A stretch of 49,526 nucleotides of DNA from a phage: the sequence record PZ296778.1; one strand, written 5' to 3'. This document shows, piece by piece, positions 1 through 41,131 of the stretch (within the stretch, counting starts at the first letter, position 1; each line of letters opens with the position of its first letter). Position numbers and translations under genes: made by a program. The notes below the pieces were generated by a model that had not been told where the DNA came from, ran no database searches, and saw nothing but the letters and a program-made list of their open reading frames with translations.

Positions 1-528
1 ATGGCTAAAAACGTTGAGCCTGCTGTAAAGGCATTAAATTTCAAAGAGTTATATAATAAAACTTATGGCGATATTGTCACGCTAAACAACCGCCACAAGT
101 ACACGCCGGAACAGGTTTTTGATATGGCGATCCGCTATTTCACTTGGGCCGAAGAGAATCACATCCAGGCGGCTGAAACTGCTTCCTTTCAGGGTTACGT
201 GTACGAGAGCAGAGTTTACAAGCCTCGCGTTTTCACGGTTAACGGATTCAGCTTGTATCTCGGCGTGACTGAGGCTGCCGTAAGCAAATGGCGTAAAGAG
301 CCTGGATTCTGCGATGTGATGGAGTTTGTTGATAAAGTAATTTACGAGCAAAAATTCCAGCTTGCGGCAAATAACATGATTAATGCTGGATTTATCGGTA
401 AAGAGATCGGCGTAGAGAAGCCAGCAACAGTGAGCGTTGAAGCTAGCGCGGCAGCTAATGCAAGCATTGACGCAGTAACTGCCGATGAGGTGAAAGAGGC
501 TGTTATTGATATTCTGGAGCAACTTTAA
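1..528 (+). CDS. terminase small subunit (putative)
   Basis: 175-aa ORF immediately upstream of the large terminase with TAATG stop/start overlap; HTH-like segment (FSLYLGVTEAAVSKWRK); strong RBS contributed by the window end (aaggagga). Confidence 0.55.
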   Translation: MAKNVEPAVKALNFKELYNKTYGDIVTLNNRHKYTPEQVFDMAIRYFTWAEENHIQAAETASFQGYVYESRVYKPRVFTVNGFSLYLGVTEAAVSKWRKEPGFCDVMEFVDKVIYEQKFQLAANNMINAGFIGKEIGVEKPATVSVEASAAANASIDAVTADEVKEAVIDILEQL

Positions 529-27358: not shown

Positions 27359-28288
27359 TTATAGCAGTGATTCGGGCTTGTAGAGTTTTCTTTCTACTCC
27401 CTGTTTAAAATTATCGTTAACAGGCATCATTATGTCAAGCCCTCTTTCCTCTGCCGCGATTATCACATCACGATCATCTTTCCGGCAGACTACGCGCATT
27501 CTTCTTTCTCCTTTATATCTATGCGCAACCATTTCAAGATTTGAAGGAGTAAAACAGGCCCACACCTCTTGACCAGTTGATAAATGAACATGCTGAGAAT
27601 CAACCCAATCAAGGCACAAATAGATCGTCTTATCTGTACTACCTGTTTTAACAACAGATCCGCGCGTGTAGTCGCGAGCTAAAAACCAATCCTTTCCATC
27701 CTCATCAATGAAAAGCACGTTACACATTTCATCATCCAGCCCGTCATCATGCACCAGGTGACAAGGTAGCGCGTGAATGTATCGACCATCCTTGACGCCG
27801 CAATCATAATGACAATCTTCCGGCGGATATATCCCCTCATAAACGCTTAAAGGTGTGCGATCGAATTTTAATGTTTTTGCCATCACTTTTTCGCAACATT
27901 CATGACTTGCCTGTTTCCCGAACGAGTAACCAGAAGAACGCGAAGCGCGTTTGTTTGCTCTGATCCTGTAATCTTGTGGCACTTTTCCGAGGAAGCGGCC
28001 CAAAATGTTTATGGCCTCGCTGTAAGGTTCGCCAGTTAATTTCATTAACCAACCGATCCCCGTGTCGTTGCCGCACACGTTGCAGATCGCGCCGCCGTCG
28101 CCCTCTTCATTTAGCTTATCAGTCCATCTAAAACGATCCTTACCGCCGCAGTGTGGGCAAGGTTGATGCTTTTTGTTGAAAACATCGCTATGCAGCCCGC
28201 AAATGCTTTGTAGTGCTTCACGCCATAACCCCTTCATATATGGCAAAACATCTTCTTTCTGATAGGTCATAAAGTTTTCAGTATTCAT
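27359..28288 (-). CDS. DNA primase (zinc-ribbon type, putative)
   Basis: Zinc-binding CPHCGG...CNVCG; start moved to MNTENF after RBS gagg; intrinsic terminator separates it from the upstream HTH gene; co-located with the helicase. Confidence 0.5.
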   Translation of the reverse strand: MNTENFMTYQKEDVLPYMKGLWREALQSICGLHSDVFNKKHQPCPHCGGKDRFRWTDKLNEEGDGGAICNVCGNDTGIGWLMKLTGEPYSEAINILGRFLGKVPQDYRIRANKRASRSSGYSFGKQASHECCEKVMAKTLKFDRTPLSVYEGIYPPEDCHYDCGVKDGRYIHALPCHLVHDDGLDDEMCNVLFIDEDGKDWFLARDYTRGSVVKTGSTDKTIYLCLDWVDSQHVHLSTGQEVWACFTPSNLEMVAHRYKGERRMRVVCRKDDRDVIIAAEERGLDIMMPVNDNFKQGVERKLYKPESLL

Positions 28289-28301
28289 GGCAAACCTCAA
28301 T

Positions 28302-28907: not shown

Positions 28908-30905
28908 ATGATTCCAAATATCGAAAAACAAATATCAGCATTAGGCGAGGCAGTAATAAAAAGCATCCAAGAGCGATTCACGGTTGGCAATATAGTGCCT
29001 TATCCTTATCAGTGCGTTGCGTATGCAGAGATCGCAAAGCGCATGAAAAACTATGAGCATCCTTTCTTTGTTAAGGCTTCTGTATCGGCTGGCAAAACAT
29101 TGATGTTTGCGATGGTTGCGGCGCAATGCCGCAAAATGGGATTGAAAATGATGGTCCTTGCTCGCCAGGCTGAAATTGTTGATCAGGATTCGGAGGAGAT
29201 CAGCAATCTTGGCGTGCCAAACTCAATCTATTGCGCCGGACTGAAAACAAAAAGCGCATACTTTCCGATCGTAGTCGGTTCTGAGGGCACTGTAGTAAAC
29301 GGATTGTTTAAGTCGTTAGGTGATTATGTTCCGCACGTTATCGGTATTGATGAATGTCACCAGGTGGATTGGGAGGATCTCGCGGACGCGATAGAAAATA
29401 ATGAATCTTACCAGCAGATGACCACTAAGAAGGATTTGCCTGTACTGATTGGAGAAGAACAGCAATTTGATTCCAATGGCGATCCAATGTTCGGAACAGG
29501 GCGCACACAGTACACCGTAATAATCATGGAAATGATGCGTAGGTGTCGCGAGGCATACGGGCACGAATTGCGAATATTCGGCATGACTGGATCTGAGTTT
29601 CGCGGCGTGGTTCCAATACTGGTTGAAGATAAGAACAAAAAGGGATTCTGGCGTGAGCAGGTGACTAACATAGACACAAACTACTTAATCAAATTCGGTT
29701 CGGTAGTGCCAACAAACTTCGGCGACGTAGGCGACCTGGGTTATGACCTTTCAGAGTTCGAAGCCAGTAGCGAGGATGGCGTTTCAGACTTTGACGCTAA
29801 AACATTGCGCAAGATGGAAGAAAAGATCCATCAAGACGCAACAATGACACAGAAAATCATGGCTAAAGTCCATGAGATATGCAAAGACAGGAACGGAGTT
29901 TTAGTTACATGCGCAGGGGAAAGGCACTGCAAGGAGGCCGCCGCCGCACTGCCGCCAGGCGTTGAATACAGGATCATAACTGGCAAGACTGGAGATAATC
30001 AGCGTAAAGAGTGGCTGAGGGAGGCATACGAGGGAAAAGTAAAATACATCTTCCAGGTACAGGCGCTTACCACTGGCGTTAACGTTCCGTTTTGGGATAC
30101 TTCGGTAATACTGAGAAAGATAGGATCTCTAACATTGCTTATCCAGCTTTTGGGGCGCGGCATGCGACTGCTTAAGCAATGGCACATTGAACAGGGATTC
30201 AAGAAAAAAGATCATCTTGTATTGGATTTTGCAGGTACTATGGATGAGTTAGGTGATTTGTATTTCGATCCAATCCTTGAGCAAGCGCAATTCCAAAAGA
30301 GATTTACAAACGGGAAAGAGCCTAAGACTTGTCCGATATGTGGAACGCTAAACAGCTTTTACGCTCGCCGATGTATGCACGTAGACGATAACGGGAAGCG
30401 ATGTGAGCATTTTTGGACTTACAGAATTTGCGAGGACCAGGTAGATCCGAGAACGAAAAAGATAATCAAGCGCGGTTGTGGAACAAAAAACGACGTAGTG
30501 GCGAGAGTATGCCGTTGTTGCGATATTTCTCTTGTCGATCCTAACGAGAAGTTAAGCGGTAAGCACTACACCAAAAACGATTGGTGCAACGTTAAATCTT
30601 TCCGCGTTGATATGACGAAAAACCAGAAAGGAATTATTTTTTGCTATGAGCTTGAGGCCAACGGCGACACGTTCAAGGCATACGAAAGATTTTTCCCTGA
30701 GTCAGAAAGCAACATTTGCCGGACGATATGGAGAAAAATAGCATTGCAGCACATACCGGATCGCAAGATTGCTGGTATGGTGGCGAGCTATAGAAATGCT
30801 CGTAAAATAATGTCATACGCTCATCACATCATGCCGCCTGTACGCGTAACGCATCGCAAAAACGGCAAAGGTGAGGATAACATTGCAAAACGGGAGTTTG
30901 TTTAA
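28908..30905 (+). CDS. superfamily 2 DNA helicase
   Basis: 665 aa; motif I SAGKT, motif II DECH, motif VI QLLGRGMR; C-terminal Cys-rich zinc-ribbon-like region. Confidence 0.8.
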   Translation: MIPNIEKQISALGEAVIKSIQERFTVGNIVPYPYQCVAYAEIAKRMKNYEHPFFVKASVSAGKTLMFAMVAAQCRKMGLKMMVLARQAEIVDQDSEEISNLGVPNSIYCAGLKTKSAYFPIVVGSEGTVVNGLFKSLGDYVPHVIGIDECHQVDWEDLADAIENNESYQQMTTKKDLPVLIGEEQQFDSNGDPMFGTGRTQYTVIIMEMMRRCREAYGHELRIFGMTGSEFRGVVPILVEDKNKKGFWREQVTNIDTNYLIKFGSVVPTNFGDVGDLGYDLSEFEASSEDGVSDFDAKTLRKMEEKIHQDATMTQKIMAKVHEICKDRNGVLVTCAGERHCKEAAAALPPGVEYRIITGKTGDNQRKEWLREAYEGKVKYIFQVQALTTGVNVPFWDTSVILRKIGSLTLLIQLLGRGMRLLKQWHIEQGFKKKDHLVLDFAGTMDELGDLYFDPILEQAQFQKRFTNGKEPKTCPICGTLNSFYARRCMHVDDNGKRCEHFWTYRICEDQVDPRTKKIIKRGCGTKNDVVARVCRCCDISLVDPNEKLSGKHYTKNDWCNVKSFRVDMTKNQKGIIFCYELEANGDTFKAYERFFPESESNICRTIWRKIALQHIPDRKIAGMVASYRNARKIMSYAHHIMPPVRVTHRKNGKGEDNIAKREFV

Positions 30906-31324
30906 TGGCTATAACTGATAAAGGAGATTATCTTGAGTTTTACGAAAGAGATCCAACCGACACGAGAAAGGAAGTTAATCACCAGATAGATAGCTTTCAG
31001 TGGTTGACTTATGCTCATCCTTATTTGCTAGCGTGGCATACGGTAAACGAGAATGAGAAGTCGAAAGTAACGGCGATGATTGATCAGCAGTCCGGCTTGG
31101 TTAAGGGGGTAAGCGATTTCATCATCCTGATTGGTTCAAACGGAAAATACCCCTTTGCAGCGATTGAGATCAAACGAGTTAATAAATCAGGCAAGGGGAA
31201 AGCATCACCAGTCAGCGATGAACAAAAGGCTTTTTTGCGTCGCGTTCGCAGCTTAGGAGGATTCGCTGCGGTCGCCTACGGATTTAATCAGTTTAAGTTA
31301 GCTATTGAATACATGCTTAAATAG
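30905..31324 (+). CDS. VRR-NUC family nuclease (putative)
   Basis: 139 aa; PD-(D/E)XK-like GVSDFIIL...AIEIKR; start overlaps helicase stop; stop TAG is part of a motif copy. Confidence 0.55.
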   Translation: MAITDKGDYLEFYERDPTDTRKEVNHQIDSFQWLTYAHPYLLAWHTVNENEKSKVTAMIDQQSGLVKGVSDFIILIGSNGKYPFAAIEIKRVNKSGKGKASPVSDEQKAFLRRVRSLGGFAAVAYGFNQFKLAIEYMLK

Positions 31325-34941: not shown

Positions 34942-35333
34942 TGAAGAATTTTTTACTTACACCAATCGCAATGGCGGTGATCTTGTCTGGATGTTCAAGC
35001 GTTACGCCACTGACCGGATTAATCGGCAGTAAGCCGGAAATCACAGCACAGGCTGGAGCGGAGAACGTGAAGCAGACAGTTGGCATTACAGCAAAGCAGG
35101 ACGCCAGCACAAAACAGGAAACCACAATAAAGGAATCTGCGGTTGACAAGGTGGACACGTCCAGCAAGAAGGATTTCACAACATCAACCATTCAGGCCAA
35201 TACCATCAAGGCAGACAAAATTCAGGTCGTGCAGGGTAATAACGGCAGATGGTACGATCCAGTAATCATATGCGTGGTTGTGTTTCTTGTGCTGATTTGT
35301 CTTTACTGGAGAGAAAAGAAAAAGGAGGCTTAA
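34938..35333 (+). CDS. unimolecular spanin (T1 gp11-like)
   Basis: N-terminal lipoprotein signal with lipobox (ILSGCSS) plus C-terminal transmembrane helix ([16 protein letters not shown]); last gene of the lysis cassette. Confidence 0.65.
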
Positions 35334-35350
35334 TGCCTCCTTTATTTTTA
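35323..35350. terminator. terminator after lysis cassette (likely bidirectional)
   Basis: AGGAGGC-ttaat-GCCTCCT hairpin overlapping the spanin stop, followed by a T-rich run; convergent minus-strand gene ends here. Confidence 0.6.
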
Positions 35351-35770: not shown

Positions 35771-36166
35771 TCATGTGATATTGAATTTACGGCGCAGTGC
35801 TTCAAGATCTTGTCTATTAGCTTTTGCCTGGAACAATTCATCATCGCCCATCTCCCCTATTCTAGCTATATCCCTGATCCAGTCGTTGCGCATACCATCC
35901 AGGCTATACAATTCGAATCCGAAAGGCCGCTTTGACGATCCTTTGGACCAGTATTTTCCGCATACTCCATCTATATAACCAGCCGTCATCATTCTTGCGC
36001 AAAATTCCTTAGATGCAAGGCTGGCGAACATTCGCGGCGTAAGTCCGGCGGCCCGTGCGAGCCGCTCACATTCTCTATGCTGATAGATAAATTTGGCTAT
36101 GTGCTGCCTGTTAAACCAATCGTATGACTCACACCATTTATACAGATCAAGCAAAAACATAATCAT
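35771..36166 (-). CDS. hypothetical protein
   Basis: 131-aa ORF; start overlaps stop of the upstream P-loop gene (ATGA). Confidence 0.45.
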   Translation of the reverse strand: MIMFLLDLYKWCESYDWFNRQHIAKFIYQHRECERLARAAGLTPRMFASLASKEFCARMMTAGYIDGVCGKYWSKGSSKRPFGFELYSLDGMRNDWIRDIARIGEMGDDELFQAKANRQDLEALRRKFNIT

Positions 36167-37854
36167 CCCAGCAGTATTGGATTGACAAAAATAACACCAT
36201 TAATCACACAAACATAATTTCTTTCTTCCAGCATTGGCAGTAAGTGCCCTTCTATCCTTTTCATTACGCCAGCCTGACCAACGAAAGGTTTTACCTTTCT
36301 CGCTGATTCGTACAGGGCGCGGATATTCAGAATCCCTTTATTAGCCTTGCCGTGCCTCGTGATCAATTCAATCAATTTACCCATTTCAGCATCATCACCA
36401 GCATAACCAGAAGCATTGGCGGCGCTAATGTATGTTTTGCTCAATTCCTGAAACATGATCAACGCCTCTTGCATTGTTTCCACGTCGATCTCTTTCGACT
36501 TCTGCGGGTATCCGGCAGGATTAAACCAGTTACGGATAACATGCAGGACGGAAGCAAGCCTGATCACCTGTTTATCCATTTTACCCAGCGCACCGCGTAA
36601 CATTGTATGAGAATACTTTCCTCCGTCTGCAAGATGCGGTTCCATATCCTGGCGAGCAATGTTGAGCACTCGCATAGCTGAACGGCTTATTTTCAGCGAT
36701 ATATTTGATTCGCTCATGATGTTATGCACCAATTGATAATATTGGGCTTTCAATTCAGAATCCACCGCCTCATAGGTAGAATCACCATTTTCATCAATGA
36801 ATGAGCGACGGCCTAAGAATGATTCCTCGCGGACCAACAAAAAACGCTCACTAACACCGATGCCTCGCGATCCAGCGTCCATGATTCCGCTTATCGTTTC
36901 ATCCTGGGCTATAACGCTCATACATCCAAGCGCGCGAAAACTCATATTATTGTCAGCATTAGCGCGGGCAATTGATACGTGACCATTATCCCACGCCTTA
37001 AGCACTAACTCACTGTTAGTCTTCCTTTCGCTATTTGCATAGGTCAAGCCTAACAGACTGTTAATACTTGTTGCTTCATCAGATATTACGGCAAAGTTAC
37101 CTTGCTTGTTGTTGATTTTCGCCAAGCCTTCTGGAGTTGTATCTGAGACAGGAAAAGTTATATCACACATTTTTTCCAGTTTTTCCTCCAGATCCTCTTT
37201 TTCCTGGTATAGAGATTCCATATCAGCGCCGGATCTTTCGCTTTTCATCTCCTTTGCAAGACCTGCCAGCTTTGCCTGTATTTTCTTTCTTTCCTTGCGG
37301 CGTTGCTCGTTGATCTTCTCAACTTCCGCAATCATCGGAGCAATAGCCATGCTGTTGATCGCAGATTTACCAGTTGACGGCGGCTGGCTTGTAACGACGT
37401 AAAGCGCAGTCGGCTGATCGGTTCCGTGATAGTCAACCGTAAAGCGTCCAAGCATAGCGGCAGAAATGCAGCCGATAAAGTGCATGTAAGCCGATGATTC
37501 AGGGAATTGAACGGATCGCGCAATGCTGCGTGATAACTTGCCGACAACATCAATATCATTACCAAGAGAAATAACGGGGTAGCGATCGTGACCGCTATTC
37601 ACATCCGATTCAGGGAATTGAACGGATCGCGCAATGCTGCGTGATAACTTGCCGACAACATCAATATCATTACCAAGAGAAATAACGGGGTAGCGATCGT
37701 GACCGCTATTCACATCCTTTACGTCGCCCCAAAAGCTGGACGACTGGCGATAGCCGTTAGCCTGAATTGATACGCGAACTGGCGAAAGGTTCTGGCTTTC
37801 AGCCATAGCGATTATTTGTTGTGGAGTTAATTTGTTCGTTTCTAATGAAAACAT
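36163..37854 (-). CDS. P-loop NTPase of unknown function (DUF3987-like?)
   Basis: 563 aa; Walker A-like PSTGKS and Walker B-like FAVISDEAT; N-terminus carries a perfect 37-aa tandem duplication; RBS aaggag. Confidence 0.5.
   Translation of the reverse strand: MFSLETNKLTPQQIIAMAESQNLSPVRVSIQANGYRQSSSFWGDVKDVNSGHDRYPVISLGNDIDVVGKLSRSIARSVQFPESDVNSGHDRYPVISLGNDIDVVGKLSRSIARSVQFPESSAYMHFIGCISAAMLGRFTVDYHGTDQPTALYVVTSQPPSTGKSAINSMAIAPMIAEVEKINEQRRKERKKIQAKLAGLAKEMKSERSGADMESLYQEKEDLEEKLEKMCDITFPVSDTTPEGLAKINNKQGNFAVISDEATSINSLLGLTYANSERKTNSELVLKAWDNGHVSIARANADNNMSFRALGCMSVIAQDETISGIMDAGSRGIGVSERFLLVREESFLGRRSFIDENGDSTYEAVDSELKAQYYQLVHNIMSESNISLKISRSAMRVLNIARQDMEPHLADGGKYSHTMLRGALGKMDKQVIRLASVLHVIRNWFNPAGYPQKSKEIDVETMQEALIMFQELSKTYISAANASGYAGDDAEMGKLIELITRHGKANKGILNIRALYESARKVKPFVGQAGVMKRIEGHLLPMLEERNYVCVINGVIFVNPILLG
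37496..37717 (-). repeat. perfect 111-bp in-frame tandem duplication inside the P-loop gene
   Basis: Two identical adjacent 111-bp units (37496-37606 and 37607-37717) encoding a duplicated 37-aa segment. Confidence 0.85.
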
Positions 37855-37906
37855 TCGTTAGCTTCTCCTTTGTGGGCCGTAAATTTTAACGGCCCAATAC
37901 TACCCC

Positions 37907-37926: not shown

Positions 37927-38144
37927 TTGATCCGCTCTATTGCAACCAGAAGTCGATCAGGCTGGCGGTCGCTGTAGCATTCTCCTGTAATCCCATCCTT
38001 AAACGTAAAGTAAAGCGCCTTATGATATGAAAAACCAATCAGCCAACCTACCGCCGTTTTTTTGATGGGCCTGACTATATCGCCAGGCTTGAAAGTCTTT
38101 GTGGTAGAATGCGTTACTTTGTAACGGTTTTCACTGTTTATCAC
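37923..38144 (-). CDS. hypothetical protein
   Basis: 73-aa ORF whose stop TAG lies within motif copy R5. Confidence 0.4.
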   Translation of the reverse strand: MINSENRYKVTHSTTKTFKPGDIVRPIKKTAVGWLIGFSYHKALYFTFKDGITGECYSDRQPDRLLVAIERIK

Positions 38145-38527
38145 AGATATTTGCCCTCAAACAGATAACAGCCGCCAGCAGAGAATCCGACCTCTTCACG
38201 GTACAGGTTCCAGCGGTCGCCGCACTCATCAAAAACATAACCCGCAACGCTTCCAAGCGGTCGCCCTTTCTCGATCTGGTATCGCTTGCCCTGCTTAAAG
38301 TGCTTTTTGCACGGCATGTTATGATCTACAAACGTGCAAAGAACGGTCTTTGTGTTAATGGCGCGGTAATCATCTCGGTTTGCTGGAAGCCAACGGCTAC
38401 CCTTAACAAGCGTCTTAACCTGGAACTCTTCCACCTCGATCACATCATTACTTCCTGCAATCTTCTGATAAACCGTTTTAAAACGGCCTTTCATCAATAC
38501 GTTGGTTTCATTACAGATAACATTCAT
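38141..38527 (-). CDS. hypothetical protein
   Basis: 128-aa ORF; overlapping start/stop with the downstream gene. Confidence 0.45.
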   Translation of the reverse strand: MNVICNETNVLMKGRFKTVYQKIAGSNDVIEVEEFQVKTLVKGSRWLPANRDDYRAINTKTVLCTFVDHNMPCKKHFKQGKRYQIEKGRPLGSVAGYVFDECGDRWNLYREEVGFSAGGCYLFEGKYL

Positions 38528-38580: not shown

Positions 38581-38600
38581 CTTTTAACAAAAAGTGCTAT
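38581..38600 (-). promoter_or_regulatory. conserved intergenic motif copy R6
   Basis: CTTTTAACAAAAAGTGCTAT; contains the stop TAG of the methyltransferase gene on the minus strand. Confidence 0.6.
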
Positions 38601-39314
38601 TTTGAGTTTGACTCAAAGACGGCGCGAGCAAAGCCGCGCGGAGTGAGGGAGCGGATCATCTTTGTGCGCGATGACTTGCCGCCAGTTTTGGCCCAGCCTG
38701 GATTATCTTTGTCTTCCTCTTTCGGCAGGATTAAAGCGCGTGGAGGAATAACAAAGCCGTTGCCAGTCCAGAGGCACGTTTTCTTAAAATAGCGATCACG
38801 CGCCGGAATAATATCAGGGAAGTCGGGATGTTTATCATCTTCCGGCAGATAGCCAGCGTAATCGCACGGATGGAACGTATAATCAGGCTTACGCCATAAC
38901 GTTGACAACTTGCCAACCGGATTTTCGATCATGTAAGGAACACCGAAATAATCAGCTATATCAGCCGCGATTCTGCAAGTGTCGGCGGCCTCATCCTGGA
39001 ACGATGGATTCTCAAGGCGTTTTTTGGCCCAATGGCGAGATCCGCTATTTGCAAGGTCGGTGCACGGCGGAAATGCCATAATAAAATCAGGATTGCCCCA
39101 CTCATTATTGATTGCCTTAACATAAAAAGCATCGTCAATCCAGACGTTAACGTATTCGATATTCTCATGCTGTATGCGCACTGACTGGTAATCACCGTGA
39201 TCGCCACCGTCAGCATTAAAGCAAATGCACTTATAGCCATTATCAGCCCAATCTTTAACGGCTTTACCAGATCCATCAAATAGGGAGAATATTAAACCTT
39301 TATACATCGTCATT
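38597..39314 (-). CDS. DNA cytosine-5 methyltransferase (small, putative)
   Basis: Motif I LFDGSG, catalytic PC motif AFPPCTD, ENV-like motif MIENPVG; start at MTMYKG after RBS gagg; stop TAG within motif copy R6. Confidence 0.6.
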
Positions 39315-39317
39315 ACC

Positions 39318-39542
39318 TCAAAACGGAAAACAGCGCGGACAACCAGGATCGAAATCGCATCCACAATCATTAACAATCATAGTGGGATCTGCAAATATTG
39401 CGCTTGATTCAAGATCCATATCCATATCACCTAAAGCCTCATCAAGAGTCTTAATTTTATATGCCACTTCAAGAGCCGCCTCTTTATTTAGTCCGGCATC
39501 TTCTGCCATTTGAAGGCGCTCAAAAAATCCGTCTTGACTCAT
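39318..39542 (-). CDS. acidic Cys-rich small protein
   Basis: 74 aa; highly acidic; C-terminal CGCDFDPGCPRC; immediately upstream of the methyltransferase. Confidence 0.4.
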   Translation of the reverse strand: MSQDGFFERLQMAEDAGLNKEAALEVAYKIKTLDEALGDMDMDLESSAIFADPTMIVNDCGCDFDPGCPRCFPF

Positions 39543-40565: not shown

Positions 40566-41131
40566 TCGTAATCAAATCGCGTCAAAATGATGATTGCCTT
40601 TGCAAATTTGATGAGAAAAGCAATCACGTTTAATCATTGGTTGCAGGGGAGATAGTGAAACCTTCCCCTCTTGCCTCACTTTTCCGCCTGGCTGTCAGCG
40701 GTTGTTGTCTTTTGTTCACCCCTGTTACCGATTTCAGGCGGCGTGTTTCCGCGCGGTTTTCCGGTGTATCGAAAACGGAAAAAACAAAAAAAATCCTTTA
40801 TAATACATTGAAAATAAAGATTATTTATTTATATATATCTATAATGTTTTCTTTTTGTTCTCACTGTTACAGTGCTTTTTGTTGGGTGTGGTGTTGTTGT
40901 GTGTTGGTATATATGGATAGTTGCGCGCGCGGCGGATTGCATATGTATATATACTTTTTCCGGCGGATTGCGTTAACAGCGTGAACAGAAAAATAACAGC
41001 CCTGAAATCAATAACTTGCGCATGATTTTGTAGTTTTTCGATATTGGTAACGTTTTGAATACAACAAAAACATTGACACGCACCAAATAGCTTTTATAAT
41101 GCGCCAACAGTCAACAACTGGAGGAAAGGAA
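40566..41131. promoter_or_regulatory. AT-rich non-coding control region between divergent early operons
   Basis: About 565 bp; A-tracts shared with 21200-21694, direct repeat CGGCGGATTGC twice, GT-rich tract, consensus promoter at 41073; the track ORF 40637-40984 is judged spurious. Confidence 0.5.
41073..41100 (+). promoter_or_regulatory. consensus sigma70 early promoter for the rightward early gene array
   Basis: -35 TTGACA, 16-bp spacer, -10 TATAAT; A-rich upstream tract; about 30 nt before RBS ggagga and ATG at 41132. Confidence 0.65.

What the first reader, a model, noticed from the sequence alone, without database searches (positions are those of the whole stretch)
36163..37854. Large early P-loop NTPase of unknown function
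The protein has Walker A-like PSTGKS and Walker B-like FAVISDEAT motifs but none of the helicase motifs found in the SF2 helicase at 28908. The overall layout resembles DUF3987 / primase-C-terminal-like ATPases from prophages. It sits in the early accessory operon rather than the replication module, so it could be a second replication initiator or an accessory ATPase.
Basis: partly seen in the sequence, partly recalled or inferred. Interest (0 to 1): 0.5.

Follow-up and report, generated by a model that had tools for sequence, protein, structure and literature searches.

The report
T1-like phage DUF3987 (MCM-like) helicase
This gene encodes the conserved DUF3987 (MCM-like AAA+) DNA helicase that T1-like coliphages most likely use to unwind their DNA during replication; it is an ordinary, already annotated core gene, but this copy carries a perfect 111-bp internal duplication that is probably an assembly artefact.

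Summary
The ORF (36163-37854, minus strand, 563 aa) and both Walker motifs are real. The window is a Warwickvirus (Drexlerviridae, T1-like) genome. RefSeq already annotates the orthologue as 'DNA helicase'.

Several lines point to the phage's replicative or initiator helicase rather than an accessory ATPase:
- The gene is found across T1-like phages (896 full-length phage records).
- It is under strong purifying selection.
- Relatives are fused to primase or DnaB-N domains.
- In distant phages it lies directly beside a DnaG-type primase, an SF2 helicase and a RecE-like exonuclease.

One feature is new. A perfect in-frame 111-bp tandem duplication (37496-37717, 37 aa) is absent from every relative and from all public collections searched. 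The record was rotated to start at the terS ATG, so an untrimmed assembly overlap is the likeliest cause.

Verdict: already known and of low interest.

The parts
36163..37854 (-). CDS of the DUF3987-family AAA+ helicase: 563 aa as written, 526 aa once the duplication is removed.
   Evidence: ORF. Pfam DUF3987 E=2e-44. PHROG 2373 'DNA helicase' E=2e-252. Orthologues are annotated as DNA helicase.
37864..37870 (-). Shine-Dalgarno sequence AAGGAGA, 9 nt upstream of the ATG.
   Evidence: Sequence read.
37717..37854 (-). N-terminal three-helix domain (residues 1-46, helices 11-21, 25-33 and 36-41). It is specific to the T1-like subfamily and its role is unknown. A primase or DNA contact is only a guess.
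   Evidence: AlphaFold2 (AF2) model, pLDDT about 87-89. W42 is invariant.
37496..37717 (-). Perfect tandem duplication of 2 x 111 bp, in frame (residues 47-83 and 84-120). The gene-proximal copy is 37607-37717 and the second copy is 37496-37606.
   Evidence: - Tandem Repeats Finder reports 100% identity and 2.0 copies.
- There is no flanking extension, and it is the only perfect tandem duplication of 15 bp or more in the window.
- It is absent from all relatives.
- The junction is absent from three public collections.
- The first copy is modelled as disordered, pLDDT 27-47.
36454..37503 (-). Pfam DUF3987 domain (residues 118-467), comprising the AAA+ core and lid.
37363..37386 (-). Walker A / P-loop, QPPSTGKS (residues 157-164).
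   Evidence: K163 is invariant in 58 sequences. G162, K163 and S164 are invariant in A1.
37171..37362 (-). Charged antiparallel helical hairpin of about 65 residues that extends the Walker A helix (residues 165-228). It is a family-specific insertion with no counterpart in MCM.
   Evidence: AF2 helices 163-205 and 209-228. It lies within the Pfam match. It disrupts profile alignment to MCM.
37072..37095 (-). Walker B, FAVISDEA (residues 254-261).
   Evidence: E260 is invariant. D259 is replaced by Ala in several homologues.
36934..36981 (-). Beta-hairpin immediately before strand beta-4 (residues 292-307), carrying invariant R297. It is a candidate pre-sensor-1 DNA-binding hairpin.
   Evidence: AF2 strands 292-295 and 304-307. 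R297 is invariant. Assignment as a pre-sensor-1 beta-hairpin (PS1BH) is an inference.
36898..36927 (-). Strand beta-4 with the motif VIAQDE (residues 310-319). Q317 sits at the sensor-1 position.
   Evidence: AF2 strand 310-316. Q317 is invariant. The role is inferred.
36841..36858 (-). GVSERF motif (residues 333-338). R337 is the candidate arginine finger (compare MCM 'SRF').
   Evidence: G333 and R337 are invariant. The role is inferred, and the sub-region hhalign did not confirm it.
36568..36597 (-). Lid motif RGxxGKxDKQ (residues 420-429). K425 is the candidate sensor-2 residue.
   Evidence: K425 is invariant. AF2 helices 417-442. The role is inferred.
36166..36396 (-). C-terminal winged-helix domain (residues 487-563).
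35771..36166 (-). Downstream gene overlapping the helicase stop codon by ATGA. It encodes a 131-aa winged-helix protein with a disordered tail carrying an invariant SD(D/E)ELF motif (PHROG 2794). It may be a partner of the helicase.
   Evidence: The same arrangement is found in T1.
27359..28291 (-). Stand-alone DnaG/T7-gp4-type primase (zinc ribbon plus the primase half only, no helicase half). It is the likely working partner of the helicase.
   Evidence: Pfam Zn_Ribbon_Prim. PHROG 510 matches only positions 6-316 of a 667-position profile. For its spread across phage genomes.
28908..31324 (+). SF2 helicase (28908-30905) and VRR-NUC nuclease (30905-31324). This is a separate motor, probably for fork or recombination-intermediate processing rather than replicative unwinding.
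   Evidence: Pfam ResIII/Helicase_C and VRR_NUC.
35321..35343 (.). Bidirectional terminator-like hairpin that closes the leftward transcription unit containing the helicase gene.

Best explanation
The gene encodes the phage's own ring-shaped replicative helicase, possibly doubling as initiator. It belongs to the DUF3987 family, a divergent MCM-like (SF6) branch of AAA+ ATPases.

**Proposed mechanism**
1. Shown for the family, inferred here: subunits assemble into an oligomeric ring.
2. ATP binds at the interface between subunits. Walker A K163 and Walker B E260 act in cis. R337 (arginine finger) and probably K425 are contributed by the neighbouring subunit.
3. Hydrolysis moves a DNA-binding beta-hairpin (R297) in the central channel, so the ring translocates on single-stranded DNA and unwinds the duplex.
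4. The C-terminal winged helix and the short N-terminal helical domain would provide DNA or partner contacts.
5. The phage has no DNA polymerase and no DnaB or DnaC homologue. The helicase would therefore work with the phage's stand-alone DnaG-type primase (27359-28291), the phage SSB and host DNA polymerase III.

**Polarity** is not known for this protein. The one characterised DUF3987 helicase runs 5'->3'.

**The duplication.** The extra 37 residues (47-83) come from a 111-bp perfect duplication. Most likely this is an untrimmed circular-assembly overlap left in when the genome was rotated to start at terS. The true protein would then be 526 aa.
For: **Family and fold**
- Pfam DUF3987 at 152.7 bits against a cut-off of 27. 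PHROG 2373 'DNA helicase'.
- AF2 model with pLDDT 83 and pTM 0.82.
- The Foldseek top 50 hits are all MCM.
- Only K163, E260, R297, Q317, G333, R337 and K425 (plus the start Met) are invariant across 58 diverse members. This is an AAA+ catalytic set.

**Literature**
- DUF3987 was predicted as an SF6 replicative helicase of phages with a C-terminal wHTH and primase association (PMC4889955).
- A PriCT-DUF3987 protein is an oligomeric, ATP/dATP-dependent 5'->3' helicase. Walker A and B mutations abolish its activity, and it binds its primase (PMC11724360).

**Genomic context**
- Every recognisable N-terminal fusion in long relatives is a replisome domain: Prim-Pol, DnaG zinc ribbon, BT4734 AEP, PriCT-2 or DnaB-N.
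- In two distant phages the gene order is DUF3987, DnaG-type primase, SF2 helicase, RecE-like exonuclease.
- The window encodes a primase lacking a helicase half, SSB, Erf and a RecE-like exonuclease, but no polymerase, DnaB or DnaC.

**Conservation**
- There are 896 full-length phage records, including T1 itself. Per-genus counts nearly equal those of the primase.
- All nucleotide differences from orkinos and SECphi27 are synonymous.

**Duplication as an artefact**
- It is exactly 2.0 copies with no microhomology.
- The window starts at the terS ATG.
- It is absent from every relative and from 15 billion proteins.
- The junction is absent from three collections.
Against: - No experiment exists on any Drexlerviridae DUF3987 protein. 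Helicase activity, oligomeric state, polarity and essentiality are all inferred.
- There is no solved structure of any family member.
- The MCM link rests on a predicted model plus the literature. My own profile-profile comparison with an MCM alignment was weak (Prob 13.6%, E=0.002, only Walker A in register). It found nothing for the Walker-B-to-arginine-finger segment. The sensor and finger assignments are therefore positional inferences.
- In this genome the gene is about 8 kb from the primase, in a different operon.
- I could not retrieve the classical data on which host dna genes T1 needs. If T1 requires host DnaB, a DnaB-replacing role would be wrong.
- The artefact reading of the duplication cannot be proven without reads. 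An in-frame insertion in a disordered linker could be tolerated.
Confidence: 0.7

Rival explanations
1. The protein is a recombination or repair motor rather than the fork helicase. It would be an MCM/ComM/RuvB-like AAA+ translocase that drives branch migration or recombination-dependent replication and concatemer formation, working with the phage Erf, RecE-like exonuclease and SSB. The host DnaB would do the replicative unwinding.
For: - The genome is rich in recombination genes: Erf, a DUF3799 exonuclease, VRR-NUC and an SF2 helicase.
- In distant phages the gene is in the same block as the RecE-like exonuclease.
Against: - All detectable domain fusions in relatives are to primases or DnaB-N. 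None is to a recombination domain.
- In distant phages the immediate neighbour is the primase.
- The characterised family member pairs with a primase-polymerase.
- The SF2 helicase with VRR-NUC already fits the recombination-motor role.
Confidence: 0.15
2. The protein is an accessory, host-range or counter-defence ATPase. It would be dispensable for replication on permissive hosts and needed only in particular hosts or against particular defence systems.
For: - It lies in a leftward operon with a Dcm-like methyltransferase and small proteins of unknown function. One of these is probably the SECphi27 128-aa Mokosh type I trigger.
- It is separated from the primase and SF2 helicase block.
Against: - It is present in T1 and in about 900 T1-like genomes.
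- Substitutions against close relatives are purely synonymous.
- There is no PADLOC match.
- Family-wide primase linkage argues against an accessory role.
- Accessory genes in these phages are typically small and variable.
Confidence: 0.07
3. On the duplication only: the 111-bp tandem duplication is a genuine, very recent mutation in this isolate, and the phage makes a functional 563-aa helicase with a 37-residue extra loop.
For: - It is in frame.
- AF2 places the first copy as a disordered loop between the N-terminal helices and the core, with the second copy forming the native fold. It could therefore be tolerated.
- Tandem duplications do arise in phage genomes.
Against: - It is unique among 926 phage records, 5.8 billion protein clusters and three contig collections.
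- The rest of the protein is 100% identical to relatives.
- It is exactly 2.0 copies with no junction microhomology.
- The record has been rotated to the terS ATG.
- 111 is odd and in the range of assembler k-mers. From my memory only, 111 is the largest k that some SPAdes wrappers choose for 150-bp reads.
Confidence: 0.3

Closest known systems
AgaPH, the PriCT-DUF3987 helicase of a Seonamhaeicola mobile element (PMC11724360)
   Same: - Same Pfam family (DUF3987), with Walker A and B motifs and a small C-terminal domain.
- It is an oligomeric ATPase functionally paired with a primase.
- It is the only biochemically characterised member: 5'->3' unwinding that depends on ATP or dATP.
   Different: - AgaPH has an N-terminal PriCT domain and partners an AEP primase-polymerase encoded immediately upstream.
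- The phage protein has a short three-helix N-terminus and no PriCT.
- The phage's primase is DnaG/T7-gp4-type and lies about 8 kb away.
Archaeal/eukaryotic MCM helicases (SF6 AAA+)
   Same: - It has a beta-hairpin before beta-4, an 'S-x-R-F' motif at the arginine-finger position, and a C-terminal winged helix.
   Different: - No MCM N-terminal OB/zinc domain.
- No helix-2 insert is evident in the model.
- A 65-residue helical hairpin is inserted after Walker A.
- Sensor 1 is Gln rather than Asn.
- There is no significant sequence-profile similarity in my test.
- The characterised DUF3987 member has the opposite polarity (5'->3').
- It is therefore not a member of the MCM family proper.
DUF3987 proteins of other phages discussed by Kazlauskas et al. 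2016 (Mycobacterium phage Corndog SF6 protein; N4 dns)
   Same: They are predicted replicative SF6 helicases of phages with a C-terminal wHTH and primase association.
   Different: Those are often fused to AEP primase domains. The T1-like version is a stand-alone helicase with a separate DnaG-type primase.
T7 gp4 / P4 alpha-type primase-helicases
   Same: Functional analogy. The window's primase carries the same zinc ribbon (PF08273), and its PHROG profile family includes fused primase-helicases. The phage appears to have a split version of the same two activities.
   Different: The helicase half of gp4 is a RecA-fold SF4 (DnaB-like) motor and that of P4 alpha is SF3. Here it is an MCM-like AAA+ DUF3987 encoded by a separate gene.
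SCCmec Cch (DUF927) and SaPI5 primase-helicase
   Different: They belong to different Pfam families and score clearly lower than MCM itself.

Membership tests
DUF3987 (Pfam PF13148) | Score above Pfam's gathering threshold over most of the model | tested here: met
   152.7 bits against a cut-off of 27. Residues 118-467 match model positions 3-350 of 364. All 58 diverse homologues also match.
DUF3987 (Pfam PF13148) | [quoted passage not shown] | tested here: met
   QPPSTGKS and vISDEA. K163 and E260 are invariant.
DUF3987 (Pfam PF13148) | [quoted passage not shown] | tested here: met
   [not shown]
DUF3987 (Pfam PF13148) | Linkage to a primase (fusion, adjacent gene or same genome) | tested here: met
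   - A primase is in the same genome but is not adjacent (27359-28291).
- It is adjacent in distant phages L006 and L007.
- Relatives carry fusions to Prim-Pol, DnaG zinc ribbon, BT4734, PriCT-2 or DnaB-N.
DUF3987 (Pfam PF13148) | ATP-dependent DNA unwinding and oligomer formation | not testable with these tools
   This has been shown only for AgaPH (PMC11724360).
MCM / SF6 clade of AAA+ helicases | AAA+ core fold closest to MCM | tested here: met
   [not shown]
MCM / SF6 clade of AAA+ helicases | Significant sequence-profile similarity to MCM | tested here: inconclusive
   - hhalign of A5 against 10 viral MCMs gave Prob 13.6% and E=0.002, with only Walker A in register.
- The sub-region test gave no signal.
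- There is no HMMER hit to PF00493.
- The literature reports 98% HHsearch probability for another member.
MCM / SF6 clade of AAA+ helicases | Pre-sensor-1 beta-hairpin | tested here: inconclusive
   A beta-hairpin at 292-307 with invariant R297 lies directly before beta-4 in the model. I could not inspect coordinates or superpositions.
MCM / SF6 clade of AAA+ helicases | Helix-2 insert | tested here: not met
   Helix 241-251 is continuous and runs straight into the Walker B strand in the model. This rests on the secondary-structure string only.
MCM / SF6 clade of AAA+ helicases | N-terminal OB-fold/zinc DNA-binding domain | tested here: not met
   [not shown]
MCM / SF6 clade of AAA+ helicases | Arginine finger in an 'SRF' motif and a trans-acting sensor 2 | tested here: inconclusive
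   Invariant R337 in GVSERF and invariant K425 in the lid lie at the expected positions. The alignment did not confirm them.
SF2 helicases (as the ORF at 28908) | DEAD/ResIII and Helicase_C domains | tested here: not met
   No such Pfam hits even at E<=1. They are present in the 28908 ORF.
DnaB/SF4 RecA-fold replicative helicases | RecA-type core (DnaB_C) and a DnaB-like fold | tested here: not met
   No Pfam hit. The structural neighbours are AAA+, not RecA-fold.
   There are no such hits in Pfam, PHROGs, the PDB or the fold searches. By position and length, the large-terminase gene corresponds to the 522-aa ORF at 528-2096, matching the SECphi27 annotation; its identity was not tested directly.

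The most novel reading that the evidence does not exclude
The 111-bp duplication is real, so this isolate makes a working MCM-like helicase with a 37-residue extra loop between its N-terminal helices and the ATPase core. Such a variant might have been selected as an escape from a host defence that senses the phage replication machinery. It would also mark an insertion-tolerant site in a helicase family that has no solved structure. More broadly, T1-like phages would run a bacterial Pol III replisome on an MCM-like AAA+ ring with DnaB-like (5'->3') polarity.
Probability: 0.25. Interest if true: 0.35.

Novelty: already known. Interest (0 to 1): 0.15.

Why it matters
The finding mostly matters for correct annotation. 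The gene should be called a DUF3987-family (MCM-like AAA+) DNA helicase, probably the replicative helicase, and not a P-loop NTPase of unknown function. Its true length is very probably 526 aa, so the record should be checked for an untrimmed assembly overlap.

T1 is a classic phage, yet the replication of T1-like phages is still poorly defined. No DUF3987 helicase from a lytic phage has been purified or solved. The family is a reasonable target for structural and mechanistic work: an MCM-like fold, reported 5'->3' polarity, and cooperation with a bacterial-type primase and host Pol III. A specialist would not be surprised by any of this.

Tried and rejected
- **PDB sequence and profile searches.** No relative with a solved structure.
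- **NCBIfam.** No model matches.
- **PADLOC.** No match for the helicase or three neighbouring genes.
- **HMMER scan of 58 family members at E<=1.** No MCM or other AAA+ family appears. Only DUF3987 and chance coiled-coil hits were found.
- **Profile-profile comparison with a home-made MCM alignment.** The full-length result was weak and the motif sub-region gave nothing. I therefore dropped the claim that R297, Q317 and R337 align residue for residue with the MCM hairpin Lys, sensor-1 Asn and SRF Arg. I keep these only as positional inferences.
- **Literature on T1 amber genes and host dnaB/dnaG dependence.** Nothing usable is in the held library.
- **SECphi27 and Drexlerviridae escape-mutant papers.** None implicates this helicase.
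- **Duplication junction search.** The junction is absent from IMG/VR, JGI metagenomes and GTDB genomes. The power is limited, because the wild-type junction itself was found only once in IMG/VR.
- **Packaging or structural ATPase.** Rejected, because no evidence of any kind supports it.
Full report
**1. Observation**

An AAGGAGA ribosome-binding site lies 9 nt upstream. The two motifs are present: QPPSTGKS at residues 157-164 and FAVISDEA at residues 254-261.

These motifs are not chance matches. In a 26-sequence alignment G162, K163, S164 and E260 are invariant. In a 58-sequence alignment reaching about 23% identity, only eight columns are invariant, and they include K163 and E260.

The gene is clearly functional. 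With one repeat copy removed (section 6), all 5 nucleotide differences from phage orkinos and all 15 from SECphi27 are synonymous.

**2. What the window is**

The region is 99.7% identical to Escherichia phages orkinos, AV105 and tonn, and 98.8% identical to SECphi27. These belong to the genus Warwickvirus (Drexlerviridae, Tempevirinae), so they are T1-like siphoviruses.

RefSeq already annotates the orthologue as 'DNA helicase', for example SECphi27 gp11 at 526 aa. Other records call it 'putative helicase', 'DUF3987' or 'YfiJ'.

**3. Family and fold**

- Pfam places residues 118-467 in DUF3987 (E=2e-44, 152.7 bits against a cut-off of 27).
- PHROGs places the protein in phrog_2373, 'DNA helicase'.
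- There is no NCBIfam model and no solved relative by sequence.
- An AlphaFold2 model built on 26 sequences is confident (pLDDT 83, pTM 0.82).
- Foldseek independently gives only MCM chains in its top 50.

The secondary-structure order is:
1. beta-1, the P-loop and alpha-1
2. a 65-residue charged helical hairpin (residues 165-228)
3. Walker B
4. a beta-hairpin at 292-307 carrying invariant R297
5. beta-4 ending in invariant Q317
6. GVSERF with invariant R337
7. a lid with invariant K425
8. a winged helix at residues 487-563

This is an AAA+ catalytic layout, but my assignment of sensor and finger roles is inference. A profile-profile comparison with ten genuine viral MCMs was weak (Prob 13.6%, E=0.002, only Walker A in register). 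The comparison restricted to the Walker-B-to-finger segment gave nothing.

The protein lacks the MCM N-terminal OB/zinc domain and, as far as the model shows, the helix-2 insert. It is MCM-like, not an MCM.

**4. What is known about the family**

Kazlauskas et al. (PMC4889955) identified DUF3987 as a divergent SF6 (MCM-related) helicase family of phages. They noted that it is often fused or adjacent to AEP or DnaG primases and has a C-terminal wHTH, and they proposed it as a replicative helicase.

A PriCT-DUF3987 protein (AgaPH) was purified and shown to be an oligomeric, ATP/dATP-dependent 5'->3' helicase. Its activity is abolished by Walker A or B mutations, and it binds its primase-polymerase (PMC11724360).

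'Unknown function' is therefore outdated for the family. No T1-like member has been studied experimentally, as far as I could find.

**5. Role in this phage**

The close relative SECphi27 has no annotated DNA polymerase, DnaB or DnaC. My scans of the window's replication and early genes found none either.

The phage does encode:
- a stand-alone primase with the T7-gp4/P4-type zinc ribbon. It matches only the primase half of a primase-helicase profile
- an SSB, Erf and a RecE-like exonuclease
- an SF2 helicase followed by a VRR-NUC nuclease

The DUF3987 protein is the only candidate for a ring helicase.

Four independent lines tie it to replication:
- **Domain fusions.** Among 26 long relatives, every recognisable N-terminal domain is a replisome domain: Prim-Pol x2, DnaG zinc ribbon x2, BT4734-like AEP, PriCT-2 and DnaB-N.
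- **Gene order in distant phages.** In two phage contigs with homologues of 36-38% identity, the gene is followed by a DnaG-type primase, the SF2 helicase and the RecE-like exonuclease. This is the same gene set as here, but contiguous.
- **Distribution.** The gene occurs full-length in 896 phage records, including T1 itself. Per-genus counts nearly equal those of the primase: Klebsiella 420 vs 469, Escherichia 295 vs 317, Shigella 37 vs 37.
- **Selection.** Divergence among close relatives is purely synonymous.

In T1-like phages the replication genes are simply dispersed.

The gene lies in a leftward unit that ends at a bidirectional terminator at 35321-35343. I could not test whether it is 'early'.

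**6. The duplication**

Tandem Repeats Finder reports a perfect 2.0-copy, 111-bp repeat at 37496-37717. It duplicates residues 47-83 as 84-120, in frame.

- Every relative lacks it. Megablast hits span 2990 instead of 3101 bp.
- The best tblastn identity in 926 records is 93.4%, which equals 526/563.
- No protein in the 5.8-billion-cluster database is 563 aa.
- The exact sequence is absent from 15 billion proteins, and the cluster members read are 525-527 aa apart from one partial sequence.
- The junction 30-mer is absent from IMG/VR, JGI metagenomes and GTDB genomes.
- The repeat has no flanking microhomology and is the only perfect tandem duplication of 15 bp or more in the window.
- Position 1 of the window is the ATG of the small terminase gene, so the record was rotated after assembly.

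A circular contig whose k-mer end overlap was not trimmed before rotation would give exactly this picture. I rate an artefact at about 0.7. Only reads or PCR can settle it.

If the duplication is real, the model suggests it would be tolerated. The first copy is a disordered loop (pLDDT 27-47) and the second forms the native helix and the QFP motif.

**7. Rivals**

- A recombination or branch-migration motor of the ComM or RuvB type is possible (0.15). The primase linkage disfavours it, and the SF2 helicase with VRR-NUC already fits that role.
- An accessory or counter-defence ATPase is unlikely (0.07).

**8. Verdict**

This is a known kind of gene, already annotated as a DNA helicase in near-identical genomes.

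Interest is low. The only unusual item is the duplication, which is most likely a sequence-record error worth correcting.

Noticed in passing
window 37496-37717: A perfect in-frame 111-bp tandem duplication lies inside the helicase gene and adds 37 aa. It is absent from all relatives and from the public collections searched. It is probably an untrimmed assembly overlap left in after the genome was rotated.
   Followed up: yes
window 1-528: The window begins exactly at the ATG of the small terminase gene and has no terminal direct repeat, so the record has been re-oriented after assembly.
   Followed up: partly
window 38141-38527 (-): This 128-aa ORF (PHROG 2684, no Pfam hit) lies two genes upstream of the helicase. 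It is the orthologue of SECphi27 gp13, the only 128-aa CDS annotated in that phage. It is therefore probably the 'protein of unknown function (128aa)' reported as the trigger of Mokosh type I defence (bioRxiv 10.1101/2022.08.27.505566).
   Followed up: partly
window 35771-36166 (-): This gene overlaps the helicase stop codon by ATGA. It encodes a 131-aa protein (PHROG 2794, labelled 'YdbL' in some records) found only in T1-like phages. The model shows an N-terminal winged helix followed by a disordered tail with an invariant SD(D/E)ELF motif. T1 has the same arrangement. It could be a helicase partner or a DNA-binding factor, but the fold search was non-specific.
   Followed up: partly
L006 8001-13047 and L007 611-5652: In two distant phage contigs the gene order is DUF3987 helicase, DnaG-type primase, SF2 helicase, DUF3799 (RecE-like) exonuclease, all contiguous. 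T1-like phages have the same genes scattered.
   Followed up: yes
alignment A1, column of residue 259: The Walker B aspartate (D259) is replaced by alanine (VISAEA) in several homologues (P0097, P0104, P0105, P0112, P0119). The following glutamate is invariant.
   Followed up: no
window 41073-41100 (+): A perfect sigma-70 consensus promoter (TTGACA, 16 nt spacer, TATAAT) lies in the divergent intergenic region at the head of the rightward operon. No equally good leftward promoter was picked up for the operon containing the helicase.
   Followed up: no
window 38597-39376 (-): The methyltransferase-like ORF upstream has no Pfam hit at E<=0.01 but matches PHROG 757 (DNA methyltransferase, E=3e-86). 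Relatives annotate a shorter 236-aa product, so the listed TTG start is probably too far upstream.
   Followed up: no
(phage collection): About 20 records named 'Campylobacter phage' (host C. jejuni) carry close homologues of this T1-like helicase and primase. This looks odd for the host and may reflect mislabelled or contaminant genomes.
   Followed up: no
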